Shown in pieces: positions 1 through 9,398 of a DNA stretch of 39,726 bases. The stretch lies in IMG/VR virus record IMGVR_UViG_3300037631_003301, positions 1 through 39,726 of that record. One strand, given 5' to 3'. Positions within the stretch are counted from its first letter, which is position 1. Every line of letters starts with the position of its first letter. Source of the stretch: a virus. Taxonomy: Duplodnaviria; Caudoviricetes. The notes beneath the pieces are model-generated. The model was given only the letters and a program-made list of their open reading frames with translations, did no database searches and was not told the origin of the DNA. The position numbers and the translations under genes are program-made.

Positions 1-2
1 TA

Positions 3-203
3 ATGGGTGATGACTATACTCTTGACGACATGGACGCTATTACAGAACATAGAAACGAAGTCCAAAACACTTGTGAATACTTATGGTCACACCCATCTTT
101 TTCAAAAGGTGGTAACAACCAAGCCCCGAAGCGTATAATTATACAGCAAGACAGGGCAAGACTGATGGAACTAAGACATGGCAAGAAAAAGAAAAGCAGC
201 TAA
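3..203 (+). CDS. Hypothetical protein, possibly 5'-truncated
   Basis: 66-aa ORF at the window edge, overlapping the next gene. No recognised motif. Confidence 0.5.
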   Translation: MGDDYTLDDMDAITEHRNEVQNTCEYLWSHPSFSKGGNNQAPKRIIIQQDRARLMELRHGKKKKSS

Positions 204-372
204 GAAAAGACCTGTACCTACAAACCCAGCGTTATATGCAAGGGTAAAGGCAGCAGCAAAAAGAAAATTTAAGGTCTATCCGAGTGCATATGCAAACGGA
301 TGGTTAGTAAAAACATATAAGCAACGTGGCGGAAAGTATAGAATGGGCGTTGCAAGGAAAAGGAAAAAATGA
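178..372 (+). CDS. Small highly basic protein (resembles the N-terminal half of the DUF5872-type viral family)
   Basis: 64 aa, 23 K/R and no D/E by hand count. Motif NPALYARVK..AK.KFKVYPSAYANGWLVK.YK.RGG.Y; ends RKRKK. Family name is from memory. Confidence 0.75.
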   Translation: MARKRKAAKKRPVPTNPALYARVKAAAKRKFKVYPSAYANGWLVKTYKQRGGKYRMGVARKRKK

Positions 373-500
373 GAACTTGGTTTAAAACTAAACTAACACA
401 ATTATTAAATATAGTCACAGGCAAAGATAAGAACTGGGACGGGTCAGTAGATATCAAAGACAAATTGATTGAAGCTGAACAGAAAGCAAAAAATGGCTAA
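369..500 (+). CDS. 43-aa protein with an EF-hand/dockerin-like loop
   Basis: Not in the ORF track. ATGA overlap with the upstream stop, and it overlaps the downstream ATG at 493. Translation MRTWFKTKLTQLLNIVTGKDKNWDGSVDIKDKLIEAEQKAKNG contains DxNxDGxVDxxD. Confidence 0.65.
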   Translation: MRTWFKTKLTQLLNIVTGKDKNWDGSVDIKDKLIEAEQKAKNG

Positions 501-774
501 ACCTAAAGGCGGATTATCAAAATGGTTCAAAGAAAAATGGGTAGATATATCTAGACCCAAAAAGAAAGGTAGGTATCAACCTTGTGGAAGAGGCAAAGCA
601 AAGACCTCTAGAAAAGGATACCCAAAGTGTGTGCCTTTAGCACGTGCAAGAACAATGAGCAAGGCTCAGAAAAGGTCGGCAGTTCGCCGTAAGAGGGCAG
701 TACCTCAAGGCGTTGGTGGAAAACCTACTAACGTACGTACTTTTACTAAACGGAGACGTCGAAAGAAGAAGTAA
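493..774 (+). CDS. Small highly basic protein (resembles the C-terminal half of the DUF5872-type viral family)
   Basis: 93 aa from ATG 493, preferred over TTG 469. 35 K/R vs 2 D/E. Motif GL.KWFKEKWVD...PCGR...YPKC.P; ends KRRRRKKK. Confidence 0.75.
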   Translation: MAKPKGGLSKWFKEKWVDISRPKKKGRYQPCGRGKAKTSRKGYPKCVPLARARTMSKAQKRSAVRRKRAVPQGVGGKPTNVRTFTKRRRRKKK

Positions 775-777
775 ACT

Positions 778-951
778 ATGAATAATCTAACTCACGAAGT
801 AGAGAAAGTATTAGATTTATCACACAGATTAAAAAGAGCAGTTCAACTGGAACTAGAGTACGGTTGTAGCTTGCAAAAATTATTAAATTTACCGAGAACC
901 GCAAATAATAAGGTTCTCATTAATAGGCTAATAAGCCAAAGTACTCGCTAA
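778..951 (+). CDS. 57-aa hypothetical helical protein
   Basis: Not in the ORF track. ATG 3 nt after the previous stop and fills the gap. Translation MNNLTHEVEKVLDLSHRLKRAVQLELEYGCSLQKLLNLPRTANNKVLINRLISQSTR. Confidence 0.6.
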   Translation: MNNLTHEVEKVLDLSHRLKRAVQLELEYGCSLQKLLNLPRTANNKVLINRLISQSTR

Positions 952-970
952 GAGTAGATAGGAATTAAAA

Positions 971-1243
971 ATGGCAAGACAAGGCGGATTTTTAAGCGGA
1001 CCAAGCGTCCACTCAACTTCCAAGCTAAGAAAGCATGTATTGAAAAGAGGTTTAACTCGTGATTTAAATGCAGCAGCAGGAACTTATGTTAACACTAAGT
1101 CTCCAATGTCCACACCTGGTGGATTTTACGGGGCAGCTCCAAAGGCAGTAGGACCAAGATTTGGTAAAACAGTCAATCCTAAAAGAGCAAAGTTTGGAAA
1201 AACAACACCTTCTACTTTATTGACGAGAAGGAGAAGAAGATAA
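971..1243 (+). CDS. Small basic Gly/Pro-rich protein
   Basis: 90 aa, AGGA ribosome-binding site upstream, 20 K/R vs 1 D, ends RRRRR. Confidence 0.75.
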   Translation: MARQGGFLSGPSVHSTSKLRKHVLKRGLTRDLNAAAGTYVNTKSPMSTPGGFYGAAPKAVGPRFGKTVNPKRAKFGKTTPSTLLTRRRRR

Positions 1244-1326
1244 TATCTTAGAACGAATAAATAAACTTATGAAGTCGGGTAGACTCGACAAAGTAGTAAA
1301 GAAATCTTTACTAACAGGGATTAAAA

Positions 1327-1671
1327 ATGGCACTAACAGACGCAGAAAAGGCACGGCTCAAAAGAGCAGGACTTAGCGGACTCAATAAACCTAAGAAGAC
1401 TCCCAGCCACAAGACTAAGAAAGCTGTAGTAGCGGTAAGAGTCGGTGGTAAAATAAAGATTATTAGGTTCGGAGCCCAAGGCATGGGTCACAACTATAGT
1501 CCAGAAGCAAGAAAAAGTTTCAAAGCGCGACACGCAAAGAACATTAGAAAAGGAAAATCTTCCGCTGCTTACTGGGCAAACAAAGTTTTCTGGGCAGGCC
1601 CAGGAGGCTCAAAAAAGAGACCACCAAAGTCTCAAAAAAGAACATTAGGATTAAAAAGAAGGAGAAAATAA
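1327..1671 (+). CDS. Small highly basic protein (DUF5754-like motif)
   Basis: 114 aa, 34 K/R vs 3 D/E. Motif KIIRFGAQG...ARKSFKARH...SAAYWA.K.FW; ends KRRRK. Family name is from memory. Confidence 0.75.
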   Translation: MALTDAEKARLKRAGLSGLNKPKKTPSHKTKKAVVAVRVGGKIKIIRFGAQGMGHNYSPEARKSFKARHAKNIRKGKSSAAYWANKVFWAGPGGSKKRPPKSQKRTLGLKRRRK

Positions 1672-1898
1672 TGACAACTGCAAATGGAACACGACTATGG
1701 CTTGAAGAAGGCATAGTACATGCAGGAAAGTTACTACAAGATTTGATAAAAGCAGAAGAGTTTAGAACTTTATCCCCCGCGGAAAAGAAAATTAAGCAAG
1801 TATCTGCAACTTATTGTTATCTTTATACCAAATTACAAGAATTAGACCTTCTAATAGATGACGAAGACGTTTTATTCCCAGATGAGACATTACATTGA
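1671..1898 (+). CDS. Hypothetical acidic-tailed protein coupled to terL
   Basis: TAATG overlap upstream, AGGAG ribosome-binding site, TTGA overlap with terL. Ends IDDEDVLFPDETLH. Confidence 0.7.
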   Translation: MTTANGTRLWLEEGIVHAGKLLQDLIKAEEFRTLSPAEKKIKQVSATYCYLYTKLQELDLLIDDEDVLFPDETLH

Positions 1899-3196
1899 TA
1901 GAAATTAGCCGTACAGACATAGTTAGTAACTATCTAATGGACTTGGAACAAGAGTCACGATTCATTAAACTCCCTATAATGGAGTATCTTGAATTATTAG
2001 GAATAGAACCTAATACATCGCAGAGAGCAATTATAAATGCTATCAATAATCCAAAATATCGTTTTGTGTGTGCGGCTATTTCACGTCGCCAAGGCAAAAC
2101 ATATATTTCAAACATAATAGGGCAGTTGGTTTGTTTAGTACCTAACAGTCATGTACTATTAATGTCTCCAAACTATTCATTATCTCAAATATCATTTGAC
2201 TTACAAAGAAACTTGATCAAGCACTTCGACTTAGAAGTGCTTAGAGATAACGCAAAAGATAAAGTTATTGAACTATCTAACAATTCTACTATAAGAATGG
2301 GTTCTATCAATCAGGTAGACTCAGTTGTTGGTAGAAGCTATGACTTAATCATATTCGATGAAGCAGCTTTAACAGATGGAAGAGATGCCTTCAATGTCGC
2401 ACTAAGACCTACACTAGACAAAGAAAACTCAAAAGCAATCTTTATATCTACTCCAAGGGGTAGAAATAATTACTTTGCGGAATTCTATTACAGAGGGTTT
2501 AGCGAGGAGTTTCCAGAATGGTGTTCAGTAAAAGCAACTTACCATGAGAATCCTCGTGTTGCTGAATCCGATATTATAGAAGCAAAGAAAACAATGTCAG
2601 AGAATGAGTTTGCTCAAGAGTATATGGCAGACTTTAATGTTTATGAAGGTCAAGTATGGGCATTTAATCACGAGACTTGTATAGCAGACTTGTCTGAAAT
2701 AGATGTAAGTAATATGGATGTTTTTGCTGGACTTGACGTAGGTTATAAAGATCCCACAGCTTTCTGTGTTATTGCATATGACTGGGATGCTGAAAAATAC
2801 TATCTTATAGATGAGTACATGGACTCAGAAAAAACAACAGAACAACACGCAGTTCAGATTCAAAAATTAATTCATAAATGGGACATTGATTATATTTATA
2901 TTGATTCTGCAGCTCAACAAACAAGATACGACTTTGCACAAAATTATGATATCAGTACTATAAACGCCAAGAAATCTGTACTAGACGGAATTGGACATGT
3001 AGCTACTGTAGTTGATAACGATGGAATAATAGTTAATCAAACTTGCAAAGAAGCACTTATCTCATTGGACCAGTATCAATGGGACCCTAACCCTAATTTA
3101 TTAAAAGAGAAACCAAAACACAATATGGCATCCCATATGGCTGATGCTATGCGATATGCGTTGTATACATTTGAAACTACAGCCACATCGTTCTAA
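1895..3196 (+). CDS. terL: Terminase large subunit, T5-like
   Basis: Walker A SRRQGKT, Walker B IIFDEAA, coupling motif ISTPRG, nuclease motifs GLDVGYKDPTA and SHMADAMRYA. TTG start. Confidence 0.97.
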   Translation: MIEISRTDIVSNYLMDLEQESRFIKLPIMEYLELLGIEPNTSQRAIINAINNPKYRFVCAAISRRQGKTYISNIIGQLVCLVPNSHVLLMSPNYSLSQISFDLQRNLIKHFDLEVLRDNAKDKVIELSNNSTIRMGSINQVDSVVGRSYDLIIFDEAALTDGRDAFNVALRPTLDKENSKAIFISTPRGRNNYFAEFYYRGFSEEFPEWCSVKATYHENPRVAESDIIEAKKTMSENEFAQEYMADFNVYEGQVWAFNHETCIADLSEIDVSNMDVFAGLDVGYKDPTAFCVIAYDWDAEKYYLIDEYMDSEKTTEQHAVQIQKLIHKWDIDYIYIDSAAQQTRYDFAQNYDISTINAKKSVLDGIGHVATVVDNDGIIVNQTCKEALISLDQYQWDPNPNLLKEKPKHNMASHMADAMRYALYTFETTATSF

Positions 3197-3205
3197 TAAG
3201 ACCTA

Positions 3206-3249
3206 CAAAAAACAGTTCTTGACATTTGCTGTATGTTTTTGGTATAATT
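3206..3249 (+). promoter_or_regulatory. Strong sigma70-type promoter for head/tail genes
   Basis: TTGACA 3219-3224, 18-nt spacer, TGnTATAAT with TATAAT at 3243-3248, A-tract upstream. Near-identical copy at 30218. Confidence 0.88.
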
Positions 3250-3267
3250 CTAATTAAGAGTAGAAAT

Positions 3268-3639
3268 ATGAATTTCAAAAGAGATTTAGTTAAATACGTA
3301 CGAGACAAAGCGAAATCACAATATAATAAATCAAGCAATTGTTTTATTTGTGATTCGACTGAACAGTTAGATTTTCATCACTATCACGGGCTTACAGAAC
3401 TACTAGAAACTTGGATAAAAAAGAAAAAATTAATTATTAAAAACGAACAAGAAATACTAGAGATTCGAGAAGCCTTCATTGATGAACATCAGAAAGAACT
3501 TTACGAGGATACAGTCACACTCTGCCATAGTCACCATATGAAATTACACTCAATATATGGTAAAAGACCCAAGTTGATACACGCAGAGAAACAAAAAAGA
3601 TGGGTCGAGAAACAGAGAGATAAATATGGCATGGTATGA
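3268..3639 (+). CDS. HNH-type nicking endonuclease, T5-like
   Basis: CxxC (CFIC), LDFHH, VTLCHSHHMKLH; same position as in T5, between terL and portal. Start placed at ATG 3268 because TTG 3226 lies inside the promoter. Confidence 0.88.
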   Translation: MNFKRDLVKYVRDKAKSQYNKSSNCFICDSTEQLDFHHYHGLTELLETWIKKKKLIIKNEQEILEIREAFIDEHQKELYEDTVTLCHSHHMKLHSIYGKRPKLIHAEKQKRWVEKQRDKYGMV

Positions 3640-4834
3640 TAGATTCTTAGGAGGGGATAAGGAAGAAAAACTTAATCCTTCTCAATACGTTATTTCTAGA
3701 AATGAAGGAATGACTGTCGACTCTCGTGAGATTGTAACAAACTATAGAAATGCTTACGAACAATTAGAAATTGTTAACCGTGCAGTAAATATGATTGTTG
3801 ATGATGTAGCAGAAATACCTTTTGCAGTCGGAGAAAAAGTACTGGGTACTACTAATGTTGTTAAAAATATTCGTAGATCTAAGGTTGATTTATTACTTAA
3901 TAAAGAGCCTAACCCTTTTCAAGATGTAAGTACTTTTAAAAGAAATCTTATAATTGATTTACTTATAGATGGAAATATATTTATTTACTTTGATGGAGCG
4001 CATATGTATCATTTGCCTGCTGACAAAATAACTATCCATACTGACGACAAAACATATATAGAAAGATTTTCATATGATAACTCAATAGATTACAACCCGA
4101 ATGAAATTATACATATAAAAGAAAATAGTTTCAATTCAATTTATAGAGGTGTACCAAGACTAAAACCAGCATATAGAACTATGCAGTTGCTCTCTAGCAT
4201 GAGAAACTTCCAGGATAACTTCTTCAAAAATGGAGCAGTTCCAGGATTAGTACTTAAGTCACCAAACACTCTTTCAGAAAAAGTAAAAGAAAGAATGATG
4301 AGAGCTTGGAGTATTAGATATAATCCAACAACAGGAGGCAAAAGACCTCTTATACTTGATGGCGGACTAGAAGTAGACGCTCTATCAAAAATTAACTTTA
4401 AAGAGTTAGACTTTGCAGAATCAATTAAATCAAATGAAAGAATTATTCTCGAAGCAATGGGCATACCACCAATTTTAATGGATGGTGGAAATAATGCAAA
4501 TATTAGACCTAATCATAGATTGTACTACTTAGAGACAGTACTACCAGTAGTTAAAAAACTGGGATATGCATTAGAAAGATTTTTTGGTTTTTCACTAAAT
4601 GAAGATGTAACAGGGATTCCTGCTTTACAACCAGAATTGAGAGACCAGGCAGCATACTATGCTACTCTAGTTAACACGGGTATATTAAGTGCTAACGAAG
4701 CAAGAGAAGCATTAGGAAAAGAACCTGTAGACGGATTTGACGAGCCAAGAGTACCTGCAAATATAGCAGGCTCAGCGACAAACCCGGAACAAGGCGGTAG
4801 ACCTCAAGAGGCTGCCCCAAGCGAGGAAGAATAA
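3626..4834 (+). CDS. Portal protein (HK97 family, T5 pb7-like)
   Basis: LLNKEPNPFQ, LLIDGNIF, EIIHIK, RGVPRL, FFKNGAVPG, GILSANEAREALG; 402 aa. Confidence 0.96.
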   Translation: MAWYDRFLGGDKEEKLNPSQYVISRNEGMTVDSREIVTNYRNAYEQLEIVNRAVNMIVDDVAEIPFAVGEKVLGTTNVVKNIRRSKVDLLLNKEPNPFQDVSTFKRNLIIDLLIDGNIFIYFDGAHMYHLPADKITIHTDDKTYIERFSYDNSIDYNPNEIIHIKENSFNSIYRGVPRLKPAYRTMQLLSSMRNFQDNFFKNGAVPGLVLKSPNTLSEKVKERMMRAWSIRYNPTTGGKRPLILDGGLEVDALSKINFKELDFAESIKSNERIILEAMGIPPILMDGGNNANIRPNHRLYYLETVLPVVKKLGYALERFFGFSLNEDVTGIPALQPELRDQAAYYATLVNTGILSANEAREALGKEPVDGFDEPRVPANIAGSATNPEQGGRPQEAAPSEEE

Positions 4835-4836
4835 TT

Positions 4837-5106
4837 ATGACAAAAGATATGATGGTAAAGTCTCTTTCTGAGTACTTTAAAAAAGAAGGTGGTATAATGG
4901 ATCTACCTGCTTATAAAGCAAAAGGAGCTGATGTTCCTGTTAAAGATTACTTATTAAGAAGAGCATTTGGTTCTTGGAGTAGAGTACTTAGTGTAGTCTC
5001 AAAAAGATACCCTGTAGACGTAGTAGTCACACCAGAAGTAAAAGAAGTACCTGTTGAGAAAAAAGCACCTGCTAAGAAGAAAGTGGAGAAGAAAGATGTC
5101 AAATAA
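4837..5106 (+). CDS. Small protein with an FGSW motif and Lys/Ala/Pro-rich tail
   Basis: 89 aa between portal and protease. LLRRAFGSWSRVL; tail KKAPAKKKVEKKDVK. Confidence 0.75.
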   Translation: MTKDMMVKSLSEYFKKEGGIMDLPAYKAKGADVPVKDYLLRRAFGSWSRVLSVVSKRYPVDVVVTPEVKEVPVEKKAPAKKKVEKKDVK

Positions 5107-7135
5107 AATTTATCATTGGACTAGCACTTTTAAATCATTAGGTGAAACTGATGATGGTGGAATAGATATTAAAGGCTCAGCAAGTACAAACGGAATTGAC
5201 AGAGCTGGAGATATTATTGAAAGCGATGCATGGACAAAAGGTGGATTAGAGAACTTCAAAAACAATCCAATTATATTGTTCAATCACAACTACGACAAAC
5301 CAATTGGTCGTGCAAAAGATTTAAAAGTTACAGAAAACGGTTTAGAAATATCTGCAAAGATATCGAAAGCTGCTGGAGATGTAACACAACTAATTAAAGA
5401 CGGTGTCCTTGGAGCTTTTTCTGTCGGTTTCAAAGTCAAGGAAGCCGATTATATGACCGAAACCGATGGATACAAAATAAAGGACGCAGAACTTTTTGAA
5501 GTTTCTGTAGTATCAGTACCTTGCAATCAAGGGGCAACTTTTGGTTTAAGCAAATCATTTGATAGTATGGAGCAATACAACGAGTATAAGCAAACTTTTT
5601 ATAAGGCTAACCCAGCAGAATCAGCAGACGCTGTTAATGTTGAGCAGCCAAGAAGGGAGGAATCCCATAACATGGAGACAAATATGTCAAAAGAAAATAA
5701 ATCTCCTGAAAGCAACTCAGAGTTCAATCTTGAGGCATTCGCAAAGCAAGTAGCTGCAGATACAGCTGCTGAAATTGCAATGAAACAAGCTGAGCAAAAA
5801 GCTGCTGAACAGAAGGCTGCAGACGAAGCTGCTCAAAAAGCAACTGACGAAGCTGAAGTTCAAAAAGCTGCTGAAGTAGCAGATCAGGAAAAAACTAAAA
5901 CTATAGTTGAAGCAGGTCTTACAGGTGCTGAAAAGCTAATGAATGACGTGGAATCTAGAGTTAATGAGAACTATTCTAATTTAGAAGCAGTTGTTAAGTC
6001 TTTAGAATCTCAACTAGCTGAGAAATCAGAAGAAATCATGAACATCAGAGAGTCTAAAAGACATTTCTCTGACAGAAATGGTCAAGGCGATTGGAAGAAA
6101 ACTTTTGAGCAAGATATCGTTGACGCAAAATTTGCTGGTCTAGCGACTGGTAAAGGATGGGACAGTGAAGTTGCTAAAGGTGTGATGGAAAAAGTTAACA
6201 CTCATTCAGGTGTACAAGTTTCATCAGCTGATTTCGAGCAAATCGTTTCAACAAACATCGAAAGAGATATTCAAAATGAATTAGTCTTAGCTCCTCTATT
6301 TAGAGAAGTACCAATGACTTCTGCAAACATGATTATCCCAATCTTACCAGATAGTGGTTACGCTGAATTTACTTCAGGGTCTGCTGTAGCAAACGACAAT
6401 TTAGATATGAGGTCTGCTTCTTATGGTGATGATGCTGGGGTTTCTATGGCTGAAAGAACTCTTTCAACTAAAAAACTTATCTCTCAATCATTCTTAGGTA
6501 ATGAAACTGAAGAAGATGCAATCTTACCAATCCTTCCTTTAATTAGAGAATCAATGGTAAGATCACACGCTAGAGCAATTGAAAACTCAATCCTAGCTGG
6601 TGATGATGCTGACGGTGTCTTTGGCACTTCAGGAGCTTCTTTCGAAGGTTTACTACACTTAGCAAGAAATGACAGTGACTATACACAATCAGGAACTGCT
6701 TTTGCAACTGATAAAATTGTAGCAACTGACTTACTTGAAATGAGAAAGAACATGGGTAAATATGGTGTGAACCCAAGTGAAGTAGTATATATTGTTTCAC
6801 AAAGATCATACTACGAACTATTAGAAGATGCTGAGTTCCAAGACGCTAACCTAGTTGGCGACATGGCTACTAAGCTTTCTGGTGAAATTGGTCAAGTATT
6901 CGGTTCAAGAGTACTATTATGTGACGAGTTTGCTACACCAGCAGTTTCTAAGTTCGGAGCTATCGCTGTTAACCCAAGAAACTATGTAATGCCAAGATTA
7001 AGAGGCGTTACTGTAGAATCTGACTACGAAGTTATTAATCAAAGAAGAGTCTTAGTGGCTTCTCAGAGATTAGGCTTTATCGACTTAATTGACGGTGCAA
7101 CTTCTAAATGGGGTTGGATGTATAAAGCTAGCTAA
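5096..7135 (+). CDS. Fused prohead protease / coiled-coil scaffold / HK97-fold major capsid protein
   Basis: ATG 5096 with GGAG upstream (679 aa). Protease motifs DRAGD, NPIILFNH, FSVGF, EVSVVSVP; then an A/E/K/Q-rich coiled coil; then a T5 pb8-like capsid domain. No internal stop. Confidence 0.95.
   Translation: MSNKIYHWTSTFKSLGETDDGGIDIKGSASTNGIDRAGDIIESDAWTKGGLENFKNNPIILFNHNYDKPIGRAKDLKVTENGLEISAKISKAAGDVTQLIKDGVLGAFSVGFKVKEADYMTETDGYKIKDAELFEVSVVSVPCNQGATFGLSKSFDSMEQYNEYKQTFYKANPAESADAVNVEQPRREESHNMETNMSKENKSPESNSEFNLEAFAKQVAADTAAEIAMKQAEQKAAEQKAADEAAQKATDEAEVQKAAEVADQEKTKTIVEAGLTGAEKLMNDVESRVNENYSNLEAVVKSLESQLAEKSEEIMNIRESKRHFSDRNGQGDWKKTFEQDIVDAKFAGLATGKGWDSEVAKGVMEKVNTHSGVQVSSADFEQIVSTNIERDIQNELVLAPLFREVPMTSANMIIPILPDSGYAEFTSGSAVANDNLDMRSASYGDDAGVSMAERTLSTKKLISQSFLGNETEEDAILPILPLIRESMVRSHARAIENSILAGDDADGVFGTSGASFEGLLHLARNDSDYTQSGTAFATDKIVATDLLEMRKNMGKYGVNPSEVVYIVSQRSYYELLEDAEFQDANLVGDMATKLSGEIGQVFGSRVLLCDEFATPAVSKFGAIAVNPRNYVMPRLRGVTVESDYEVINQRRVLVASQRLGFIDLIDGATSKWGWMYKAS
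5655..5686 (+). promoter_or_regulatory. Candidate internal translation start for a capsid-only product
   Basis: GGAG 5674-5677 lies 6 nt before in-frame ATG 5684. A second in-frame ATG is at 5672. Mini-hairpin GGGA-GGAA-TCCC at 5655-5666. Confidence 0.65.
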
Positions 7136-7188: not shown

Positions 7189-7800
7189 ATGGCGAATTTA
7201 ATAACATTACAACAGTATAAAAACTTTGCAGGTCTTACAGGCGTATCTGAAGACGCAAAGATTAATGTTATTATACCAGCCATCAGTCAAGCAGTAAAAA
7301 CCTACTGCGGGACTAGTTTTGTAGACTATTATTCAAGTGCAAAGACAGAATACTATGACATCAATGATCAGTACACTAATGCAATAATACTCGATGAAAG
7401 TCCAATTGTGAGCGTGACTTCAGTTGCCGAAAGGAAGAAGCAATCAGACTCATATACGACACTAATAACAGAAAACTCCGACAGTAGCGGAAAATATGAA
7501 TACATAGTAGATGAAGTAGCAGATACTATTTTTAGAACTACTGAGTCAGGAGACAAAATGTTTCCACAAGGAAGAAAAGCGGTAAAAGTTGTGTATACTT
7601 CAGGGTATGCAGCAACACCGGAAGATTTAAAACTAGCGTGTTTTGATTTAGTTAAGTACTATTTAAAAGATGAGAGGAAACAAAACTTAACTATATCAGG
7701 CGCACAGATACAAAATCCTGTATCAACAAGTTTAAGAGAAAACATAGGTTTTCCAGATCATATTAAACGTATACTGGATTTTTATAAGATACATAAATAA
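7189..7800 (+). CDS. Head completion / head-tail adaptor (T5 p144-like)
   Basis: LITLQQYK, VKTYCG, VKVVYTSGY..TPEDLKLA, FPDHIKRILDFY; directly after capsid. Confidence 0.88.
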   Translation: MANLITLQQYKNFAGLTGVSEDAKINVIIPAISQAVKTYCGTSFVDYYSSAKTEYYDINDQYTNAIILDESPIVSVTSVAERKKQSDSYTTLITENSDSSGKYEYIVDEVADTIFRTTESGDKMFPQGRKAVKVVYTSGYAATPEDLKLACFDLVKYYLKDERKQNLTISGAQIQNPVSTSLRENIGFPDHIKRILDFYKIHK

Positions 7801-9398
7801 TGGCTCTTAATATAGTAGAAAGAGATATTAGAGCTGCTGTAGACAGATACTCCGATAGTGAACTAAGAAAGAAAATGGGGCAAACTTATTTACATGATAT
7901 AAGAATAAGCTCTGAAAACGCAAGTGTAGCATTTCAACAAGGAGTTGTAAATGTTATGGAAGGTATGAAGTTTACTCAAGAAGAGATGAACCAAATAAAC
8001 CAAAGCTATAATTCAACTTCAAATTGGAAAAATATAGTAAATAAATTATTTGGTCAAATGTCAAGAATGAGTACTGTAGTAGAAACAAATCATGAGATAA
8101 GAAGTTTCAGGCAGTTTTATAAACTAGGAGTAGCAAGTAGTAGAGGTATATTTTTATTAAAAGGGTCTACTAAAGATAAAATAATAATTAGACTATATAA
8201 TAATTCAAGTGAATATAAAGGTACGGGCTTAACTAAGTTTAATAAGGAATTAAGAAAAGTAGCTTGGAATCTTTGGAAGGAAACGTACTTACAAGGTGTT
8301 AATACATCAGAAGGTGAAAAATTACAGAATATAAGTTTAGAGAGTAGATTACCTCCTAAAAATCCAAAGTCAAAGACAGGAACAAGCGTAGCATCAGCTT
8401 TTGGAAGAGGTACTCCTTTTGCACATGATTCTGAAACAGCAGTTGGAACTTTCGGACTAGAAGAATTAGAGCAAGATTTAAGAACTAACCAAGATTTTAC
8501 AGCAGCGTTAGGAGCTTTACAGACATATGGAATAAGTGTTGATGTAGTAAAAAGTGTAAAAAATAGCTTAGATTTGACTTTTGAAAAGCAAATAATTGTT
8601 ATGCCCGATGGGGCAGAAGAAGAAGTCAGAGTAGTAAAAGGATCAATTAGAAAACAAGGTAAAGAGCCTGGTGACTGGACAAACATAAAACAAGACATTT
8701 TAGGAAGTAAAAGTAATAAGAAAGAAGGAAGTTTAGCAAGGTTTTTAGATAGTGCAAATGCAAAAATAAGGGCATTAGACCCGGCAACTGCTGCAGATGC
8801 AGAAGCCAGTGAACCTTACTCAAAAAGAGCAGGTAAAAGAGCTGCAGAAAGAATTGTAAAAGCAGCTTTAAAAGCAGAAGGAGCAAAAAGAACTAAAGGA
8901 AAAGCACCTAAGAAAGCAAAATCAGGAACTCAGTCTACTAAAATAAAAATGAGTACAGGCCTTTCTACTGTTGCAAAAGCTCAAATACTTACTATAGCAG
9001 GAGGAGCAAAACTAAGTGCTCGAAAAGGCAGAAGTAAGAGTAAGGAAGAAAAAGGCGGAAGTATAAGTCTACCTAAATTAAGAACAAACATTAATAGATC
9101 TTTAGGTGCTGAAATAAGAAGGAATATGGGGAAACCTGCTTTAACAAATAGAACAGGAGAATTTTCAAATAGTGCAGAAGTATTAAATTTAAGAGACACT
9201 GGAAGAACAATAACAGGTGAATATACTTATACCTTGACAGGAGGCGGAAAAAGTAGTAATAGGTCTCAAGTATATTCTACGTTTGAGAATTCAGGTAAGT
9301 GGCCTTCGGGGTATAATCCGAAGCCTTTAATAGCTAAAAGTATAAGAAACTTAGCTTTAAGATATACAGAAAGAAAATTTACACTTAGGAGAGTATAA
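7800..9398 (+). CDS. Tail completion protein (T5 p143-like C-terminus, extended)
   Basis: Gene order; C-terminal RNMGKPALTNRTGEFSNS...YSTFE...NPKPLIAKSIR; 532 aa, basic. Confidence 0.7.
   Translation: MALNIVERDIRAAVDRYSDSELRKKMGQTYLHDIRISSENASVAFQQGVVNVMEGMKFTQEEMNQINQSYNSTSNWKNIVNKLFGQMSRMSTVVETNHEIRSFRQFYKLGVASSRGIFLLKGSTKDKIIIRLYNNSSEYKGTGLTKFNKELRKVAWNLWKETYLQGVNTSEGEKLQNISLESRLPPKNPKSKTGTSVASAFGRGTPFAHDSETAVGTFGLEELEQDLRTNQDFTAALGALQTYGISVDVVKSVKNSLDLTFEKQIIVMPDGAEEEVRVVKGSIRKQGKEPGDWTNIKQDILGSKSNKKEGSLARFLDSANAKIRALDPATAADAEASEPYSKRAGKRAAERIVKAALKAEGAKRTKGKAPKKAKSGTQSTKIKMSTGLSTVAKAQILTIAGGAKLSARKGRSKSKEEKGGSISLPKLRTNINRSLGAEIRRNMGKPALTNRTGEFSNSAEVLNLRDTGRTITGEYTYTLTGGGKSSNRSQVYSTFENSGKWPSGYNPKPLIAKSIRNLALRYTERKFTLRRV

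What the first reader, a model, noticed from the sequence alone, without database searches (positions are those of the whole stretch)
178..1671. Cluster of protamine-like genes with shared poly-basic C-terminal tails upstream of the terminase
Seen: four unrelated small proteins (64, 93, 90, 114 aa) carry 23, 35, 20 and 34 K/R but only 0-3 acidic residues. All end in a basic run (RKRKK, KRRRRKKK, RRRRR, KRRRK) and are packed in one run leading into terL. Known: T5 has terS at this position and no such cluster. From memory, three of the proteins carry motifs of uncharacterised families (DUF5872- and DUF5754-like) also found in giant eukaryotic DNA viruses. Inference: a multi-component DNA-condensing core or nucleic-acid-binding system, with the basic tail as a common DNA-binding or capsid-loading tag. 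This is my best candidate for an undescribed system here.
Basis: partly seen in the sequence, partly recalled or inferred. Interest (0 to 1): 0.85.

Follow-up and report, generated by a model that had tools for sequence, protein, structure and literature searches.

The report
Basic mini-protein island, marine T5-like phage
A marine T5-like phage carries, just before its DNA-packaging gene, a conserved row of four tiny, very positively charged proteins, three of which recur side by side or fused to head proteins in unrelated aquatic viruses, so they likely ride inside the capsid bound to the DNA, which would give a first role to the long-unexplained Tlr6F-like proteins.

Summary
Observation confirmed: four conserved genes (A 178-372, B 493-774, C 971-1243, D 1327-1671) with the stated charges and non-chance basic tails. 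Corrections: A and B match the two halves of one family (DUF5872). D is a folded Tlr6F/DUF5754-like domain, not a protamine. Non-basic genes are interleaved, and an acidic 75-aa gene precedes terL. A, B and D sit side by side in unrelated podoviruses. They are fused in several orders in polyproteins, and fused to prohead proteases and a portal. In T4-like phages they follow head-protease-type motifs, and one B-bearing polyprotein (S-SM1 gp115) was detected in purified virions; the Syn9 ortholog was not. Best reading: head-packaged, DNA-associated basic cargo (packaged about 0.65; charge-neutralising role about 0.45). The tail is common in this clade (D 64 of 66) but mostly absent outside (D 4 of 116), so it is a lineage add-on, not a universal tag. 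No function was tested and my searches found no paper on the system. This scan has noted the same kind of cassette before on other genomes.

The parts
178..372 (+). A: 64-aa basic protein, N-terminal half of DUF5872 (PF19197)
   Evidence: Pfam E 2.1e-10, 41.6 bits against cut-off 27.5, profile 1-41 of 116; pN/pS 0.08
369..500 (+). s1: 43-aa conserved gene with an EF-hand/dockerin-like loop (DKNWDGSVDIKD; motif name recalled); no basic tail
   Evidence: in 124 of 147 clade loci, tail in 1 of 52 unique proteins; pN/pS 0.17 n=5; no Pfam or PHROG hit
493..774 (+). B: 93-aa basic protein with two invariant Cys, C-terminal half of DUF5872; phrog_23735
   Evidence: Pfam E 6.3e-4, below cut-off, profile 51-95; PHROG E 4.4e-27; alignment
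778..951 (+). s2: 57-aa conserved gene of unknown function, no basic tail
   Evidence: 128 of 147 clade loci, tail in 0 of 43; pN/pS 0.24
971..1243 (+). C: 90-aa Gly/Pro-rich basic protein, found so far only in this clade
   Evidence: no Pfam, PHROG or isolate hit; 302 clusters at 90% identity but one full-length representative at 50% among 29 hits; pN/pS 0.11
1327..1671 (+). D: 114-aa basic protein, folded Tlr6F/DUF5754-like domain (phrog_7595) with a C-terminal extension and basic tail
   Evidence: PHROG E 4e-29; 5 of 23 aligned homologs hit PF19058; model mean pLDDT 79; fold matches to giant-virus and virophage proteins
1671..1898 (+). E75: 75-aa acidic conserved gene in the position of T5 terS, abutting terL; terS identity not shown
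   Evidence: 146 of 147 clade loci (set partly defined by this gene); no similarity to Slocum terS
1895..3196 (+). terminase large subunit, T5-like
   Evidence: Pfam and PHROG; 47-49% identity to the 25 best records, T5-like phages

Best explanation
A, B, C and D are conserved small basic proteins of a marine T5-like siphovirus that are likely packed inside the phage head, where they would bind the DNA and neutralise part of its charge. A, B and D belong to a shuffled kit of mini-modules: in other phages they are neighbouring genes or beads of one polyprotein, or hang on a prohead protease or portal (shown). In T4-like phages the beads follow motifs of the kind the head protease cuts (shown as sequence; cutting inferred). 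Here the kit is a row of free genes without such leaders, and the basic members have gained K/R runs (shown), which would favour co-loading with DNA or tighter binding to it (inferred). C is a clade-specific addition.
For: Gene neighbours D-A-B in C72C1, CRP-207 and HTVC106P, and A-B in HTVC023P. Two or three of A/B/D together in 76 of 80 and 79 of 80 loci fetched with podovirus B queries. Among 240 longer homologs: B-A 57, D-A 28, A-D 5, A-B 2, B-A-D 1. Fusions: ICP1 gp125 = XkdF protease 37-160 + D 182-268, inside the portal-protease-scaffold-coat operon; CL131 gp012 = portal + D + InPase + MuF; P0176 and P0184 = head maturation protease + B + A. [ILVM]-x-E in the 12 residues before 9 of 11 modules in proteins with T4-CTS-like starts, 2.0 expected, 0 of 2000 random draws as high; T4 gp21 cuts at L/I-X-E (PMC9026906 passages). 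S-SM1 gp115 (T4-GC119) carries B (E 1.7e-9) and was detected in purified virions with 13 counts (PMC3037559 Table S8). A few Tlr6F peptides were seen in PgVV particles, below threshold (10.1101/2022.07.28.501842 passages). Head or packaging gene within 3 kb in 23 of 23, 19 of 20 and 15 of 22 full-flank loci. Net charge +19 to +33.
Against: Nothing was measured on these proteins or this phage. Syn9 T4-GC119 carries B and A motifs by eye but was not detected in its virions. Where the S-SM1 peptides lie is unknown, and its A match is weak (E 0.03 with the first profile, absent with the iterated one). PgVV Tlr6F did not pass the detection threshold. In HTVC106P-like loci a head gene lies within 3 kb in only 6 of 22, an endolysin in 13 of 22. 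D stands without A or B in 51 of 60 other loci. The window's proteins have no CTS-like start. A charge-neutralising role does not explain the invariant aromatic motifs or the Cys pairs. D also occurs in an archaeal spindle-shaped virus that has no tailed-phage head. Loci are related and some contigs were fetched twice, so counts are not independent.
Confidence: 0.45

Rival explanations
1. They are packed in the head but act after ejection as specific effectors (counter-defence or host takeover), like T4 IPI*; the basic surface only lets them travel with the DNA.
For: Same packaging evidence as the best explanation. D has a defined fold and A, B, D have invariant aromatic motifs. The island is variable between relatives. 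Fusion partners include NUDIX, InPase and SLT domains. The IPI* precedent is in PMC3012670 passages.
Against: The same modules occur in phages of SAR11, roseobacters, cyanobacteria and Vibrio, an archaeal virus and algal viruses, which share few specific targets.
Confidence: 0.2
2. They are late cytoplasmic nucleic-acid-binding helpers of packaging or prohead assembly and are not kept in mature virions.
For: Position next to terL or between terS and terL; one D-terL fusion, P0072; weak or absent virion detection in Syn9 and PgVV.
Against: Detection of S-SM1 gp115 in virions; CTS-like starts and protease-type motifs point to the head interior.
Confidence: 0.18
3. They are cationic lysis accessories that weaken the outer membrane (disruptin-like; recalled, no call).
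For: An endolysin lies within 3 kb in 13 of 22 HTVC106P-like loci; lysozyme or peptidase M15 genes lie just upstream in CRP-207, HTVC023P and HTVC106P.
Against: No endolysin near the island in 0 of 148 clade loci with two query lysins; fusion to portal and proteases; presence in eukaryotic viruses.
Confidence: 0.07
4. The tails are a by-product of overlap with the next gene's purine-rich ribosome-binding site.
For: The D and A tails overlap AGGAG/AAGGA before the next start; tails are commoner when the next ORF is near (A 25 of 27 against 1 of 8; D 64 of 64 against 0 of 2; B 30 of 30 against 14 of 21).
Against: C keeps its tail in 41 of 48 cases with no near ORF; CGN codons are common in tails; equally coupled non-basic neighbours have no tail (E75 0 of 66, s2 0 of 43, s1 1 of 52).
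Confidence: 0.07

Closest known systems
Pfam PF19197 (DUF5872)
   Same: A passes the curated cut-off on profile 1-41 and B matches 51-95 below it; the family is listed in the giant virus CpV-BQ1 (PMC12085832 passage).
   Different: Split into two genes with another gene between them; elsewhere often fused in the reverse order B-A. No function in print (1 paper, a list).
Tlr6F / PF19058 (DUF5754)
   Same: Small basic protein widespread in PLVs, virophages, giant viruses and phages (PMC4642659, PMC12220804 passages); D links to it through homologs and predicted fold.
   Different: The window's D does not itself hit PF19058 and has a C-terminal extension with a basic tail. The passages read give Tlr6F no function.
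T4 internal proteins IPI/IPII/IPIII with capsid targeting sequence and gp21 processing
   Same: Small basic head cargo; homologous modules in T4-like phages sit behind CTS-like starts and [ILVM]-x-E motifs (PMC9026906 and PMC3012670 passages).
   Different: No homology to the IPs was found or tested; the window's proteins lack CTS and cleavage leaders; the phage is T5-like.
Cyanomyovirus T4-GC119 (phrog_727)
   Same: Polyprotein between terS and terL carrying B and A modules; detected in S-SM1 virions.
   Different: One fused gene with DUF6321 and other beads there; separate tailed genes here.
Protamine-like viral core proteins (baculovirus P6.9, adenovirus pVII)
   Same: Small, very basic, proposed to sit on virion DNA (search listing and abstracts only).
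   Different: The window's proteins are 10-16% Arg, three of four are Lys-rich, and D is predicted to fold; no homology.

Membership tests
DUF5872 (PF19197) | score above the Pfam gathering cut-off | tested here: met
   A: 41.6 bits against 27.5
DUF5872 (PF19197) | both halves of the 116-position profile in one chain | tested here: not met
   A covers 1-41; B covers 51-95 at 20.7 bits, below cut-off
Tlr6F / DUF5754 (PF19058) | score above the Pfam gathering cut-off for D itself | tested here: not met
   no hit at E 1
Tlr6F / DUF5754 (PF19058) | homology through relatives and fold | tested here: inconclusive
   5 of 23 homologs hit PF19058, best E 1.2e-4; P0206 passes the cut-off (30.5 against 27.4) and the D profile hits the same stretch at E 3e-5; Foldseek E 0.016-0.076 to Tunisvirus, iridovirus, virophage YSLV5 and CeV proteins. 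Homology likely, formal membership not shown.
T4 internal proteins | N-terminal capsid targeting sequence and gp21-type site | tested here: not met
   the window's proteins start MARKRK, MAKPKG, MARQGG, MALTDA; seen only in T4-like homologs (CTS letters recalled)
T4 internal proteins | present inside mature heads | not testable with these tools
   uncultured phage; one module-sharing polyprotein detected in S-SM1 virions, its Syn9 ortholog not
Protamine-like viral core proteins | Arg-dominated, low-complexity, unfolded chain (definition recalled) | tested here: not met
   Arg 9/64, 15/93, 11/90, 12/114; D model mean pLDDT 79
Protamine-like viral core proteins | condenses DNA | not testable with these tools
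   needs an assay
T5 terminase small subunit (for E75) | sequence similarity to T5-type terS | tested here: not met
   hhalign probability 0.2%; no tblastn or phmmer hit in the window or clade loci
T5 terminase small subunit (for E75) | gene directly abutting terL | tested here: met
   1671-1898 overlaps the terL start, as terS does in Slocum

The most novel reading that the evidence does not exclude
A, B and D/Tlr6F are parts of an undescribed, shuffled virion-chromatin kit shared by tailed phages, archaeal spindle viruses, polinton-like viruses and giant viruses. Each lineage loads it with its own address: protease-cut leaders in T4-like phages, fusion to protease or portal in others, and in this T5-like clade a portable poly-K/R tail that could carry any protein into the head.
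Probability: 0.2. Interest if true: 0.87.

Novelty: new variant of a known kind. Interest (0 to 1): 0.62.

Why it matters
Tailed phages are generally thought to neutralise packaged DNA with small ions and polyamines rather than proteins (my own knowledge). About 11,000 stored viral stretches match D's patterns (estimate), and the modules occur in abundant SAR11, roseobacter and cyanobacterial phages, so a protein kit inside their heads would be a common but unnoticed part of aquatic virions. It would also give a testable role to Tlr6F, called uncharacterised in passages from 2015 to 2026, and to DUF5872. Cultured, harmless carriers exist, so the test is direct.

Tried and rejected
Complex prediction of A with B gave no answer (score 0.00): evidence neither way. 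The D model had no match among solved structures (Foldseek best E 0.29; VIA best Z 2.5), which does not show a new fold. The B model was poor (pLDDT 62); its BFVD matches were weak (none at E 0.001). ORF 1269-1376 was rejected as a gene (pN/pS 0.87, n=15). No Rfam match in 1-4000; promoter-like sites in 1-3700 were at chance level (14 against 10.4 +/- 4.0). C: no usable Atlas hit; the two long hits were TPR and Calx-beta repeats and did not re-score; longer fusions of C were not searched with the word-index tool. The GR7B record labelled 'Peptidase_S78_2' is a stand-alone 124-aa D-like protein, not a fusion. The S-SZBM1 proteome was uninformative because its gene 194 has no A, B or D module. 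Twenty runs (16 on record as RNA, 11 studies) hold part of 100-2000 and contigs covered parts of the island in 4 of 4 runs laid, but contigs cannot show transcription or level. In the Kyanoviridae motif test (4 of 6, P 0.016) two D starts were mis-anchored, so I lean on it little. The Atlas was unreachable for D. Searches that found no description of the system: (open-licence library only). The PgVV supplement with Tlr6F peptide counts (bioRxiv) could not be seen.

Full report
Setting. The window is the whole held contig. It is the structural module of a T5-like siphovirus: terL, HNH, portal, fused protease-capsid and T5-type tail genes. TerL is 47-49% identical to the 25 best records, T5-like phages such as Slocum. 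Public runs holding the region are marine.

Observation. The four ORFs, their charges and their tails are as stated. Tail runs exceed shuffles of the same residues (P 0.0044, 0.00023, 0.00042, 0.0020), and 28 other window genes end in 0-1 basic residues. All four are under purifying selection (pN/pS 0.08-0.20), as are three interleaved non-basic genes (369-500, 778-951, 1671-1898); 1269-1376 is not. The island continues upstream of the window in near-identical contigs and varies in content between relatives.

What the parts are. A matches DUF5872 positions 1-41 above the cut-off and B positions 51-95 below it, so they are halves of one Pfam model. D matches phrog_7595 and part of a minor head protein family. 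It does not hit PF19058 itself, but 5 of 23 aligned homologs do. One protein that passes the PF19058 cut-off is hit by the D profile on the same stretch. The D model (mean pLDDT 79) matches proteins of Tunisvirus, an iridovirus, virophage YSLV5 and CeV weakly. PF19058 is Tlr6F (PMC12220804 passage), described as widespread and uncharacterised (PMC4642659, 10.1101/2022.05.02.489867, 10.64898/2026.08.29.747986, passages; 10.64898/2026.06.19.733378 passages only list it). C has no family and appears confined to this clade.

Conservation. In 148 clade loci (related, some contigs fetched twice, and the set partly defined by C or E75) the order A>B>D holds in all 97 that carry the three. Outside the clade, D-A-B are neighbours in C72C1, CRP-207 and HTVC106P, and A-B in HTVC023P. 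Two or three modules co-occur in 76 of 80 and 79 of 80 loci fetched with podovirus B queries, but D stands alone in 51 of 60 loci fetched with D. Other small basic ORFs crowd around the modules: 106 of 229 near against 8 of 146 far, 167 of 411 against 11 of 143, 67 of 390 against 20 of 183, and 231 of 1051 against 15 of 180 in the clade. A head or packaging gene lies within 3 kb in 23 of 23 (clade), 19 of 20, 15 of 22 and 6 of 22 full-flank loci, with a limited query set; in the last set an endolysin is near in 13 of 22.

Fusions. Of the best 120 of 1742 longer D homologs and the best 120 of 4884 longer A homologs, 93 hold two or more different modules, in several orders. D is fused behind the XkdF-type protease in ICP1 gp125, within the capsid operon (gp125 is called the presumed protease in PMC9040626 passages). 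It also sits between portal and MuF in CL131 gp012. B and A follow a head maturation protease in P0176 and P0184. Ten of the 240 proteins begin with a T4-CTS-like pattern (my pattern, from recalled letters; one hit is doubtful). In these, [ILVM]-x-E precedes 9 of 11 distinct modules against 2.0 expected; in other polyproteins 56 of 179 against 30. T4 gp21 cuts at L/I-X-E and a 10-residue leader suffices for loading (PMC9026906 and PMC3012670 passages).

Virion evidence. T4-GC119 lies between terS and terL in cyanomyoviruses. In PMC3037559 (passages and supplements) it is listed as detected in purified S-SM1 virions with 13 counts, absent from S-PM2 and undetected in Syn9; the column heads were not captured, so I inferred them from the rows. 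S-SM1 gp115 carries B at E 1.7e-9 and a weak A match; shuffled controls gave no hit. Which beads the peptides came from is unknown. PgVV Tlr6F gave a few peptides in purified particles, below threshold (10.1101/2022.07.28.501842 passages; supplement not visible). The S-SZBM1 proteome (PMC9146016, section 3.4 and part of Table 1) was uninformative. PMC13326640 (passages) added nothing; PMC3671162 was not read.

The tail. With four or more K/R in the last six residues as the test, unique clade proteins score A 26 of 35, B 45 of 52, C 46 of 57, D 64 of 66. Outside the clade: A 32 of 98, B 31 of 119, D 4 of 116. For the long form of D alone it is 64 of 64 against 4 of 21. Non-basic island genes have no tail. 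So the tail is real and selected in this clade, shared by unrelated basic families, but not needed by the modules elsewhere. Overlap with ribosome-binding sites may contribute but cannot explain C.

Mechanism. Shown: real genes; shared modules; fusions to head proteins; protease-type motifs in T4-like homologs; virion detection of one module-bearing polyprotein; clade-specific tails. Inferred: late expression with terL; loading into the prohead or with the DNA; DNA binding and partial charge neutralisation; the tail aiding loading or binding. I put packaging at about 0.65, split into a DNA-associated structural role (0.45) and ejected effectors (0.2). Cytoplasmic packaging helpers (0.18) and lysis helpers (0.07) follow.

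Novelty. It works like T4 internal proteins but is not a member of that family, and it is not a protamine. The families are catalogued without function, and my ten paper searches showed no description of the kit. This scan has noted the same kind of cassette on other genomes, including another marine T5-like phage (e1-6014057). Those notes are not independent support; my reading was on record before I saw them, and one prompted the terS search. Verdict: new variant of a known kind, interest 0.62.

Noticed in passing
L001 130-1395; L023 101-1201 (upstream of the window start): FecR and CHASE2 plus adenylate/guanylate cyclase genes lie just upstream of the island across the clade.
   Followed up: partly
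L071, L075, L078 (e.g. L078 6738-7043): T5-clade loci where the long tailed D is replaced by a podovirus-type short D ending NKVKW, which suggests gene exchange.
   Followed up: partly
L160 3805-4219 (CRP-207): The B frame has no near ATG and overlaps the end of A in another frame; CRP-2 shows the same offset. Possible programmed frameshift joining A and B.
   Followed up: no
D homologs: Two Cys positions co-occur strictly: 52 with both, 263 with neither, 0 with one, of 315 matched among 336; possible disulfide or metal site, perhaps one lineage.
   Followed up: partly
L099 4256-4387; L092 2104-2418 and 3183-3383; L023 5757-6008; L112 3820-3999: Optional island genes in relatives; several match beads of polyproteins elsewhere, one is DUF3721-like.
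   Followed up: partly
L171 2971-3222: A D-like gene flanked by small basic ORFs in a Nitrosopumilaceae spindle-shaped virus (E 1.9e-19).
   Followed up: partly
window 5105-7135: Prohead protease and major capsid protein are fused in one ORF; T5-like Slocum annotates a separate protease.
   Followed up: partly
window 7800-9398: 532-aa basic protein (91 K/R, pI 10.1) between head completion and tail terminator genes, with no Pfam or PHROG hit.
   Followed up: no
window 3219-3248: Perfect sigma-70-type promoter consensus (12 of 12, extended -10) before the HNH-portal genes.
   Followed up: no
window 1671-1898: No T5-type terS was found in the window or clade loci; the conserved acidic 75-aa gene may be a novel small terminase or a chaperone for the basic proteins.
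   Followed up: partly
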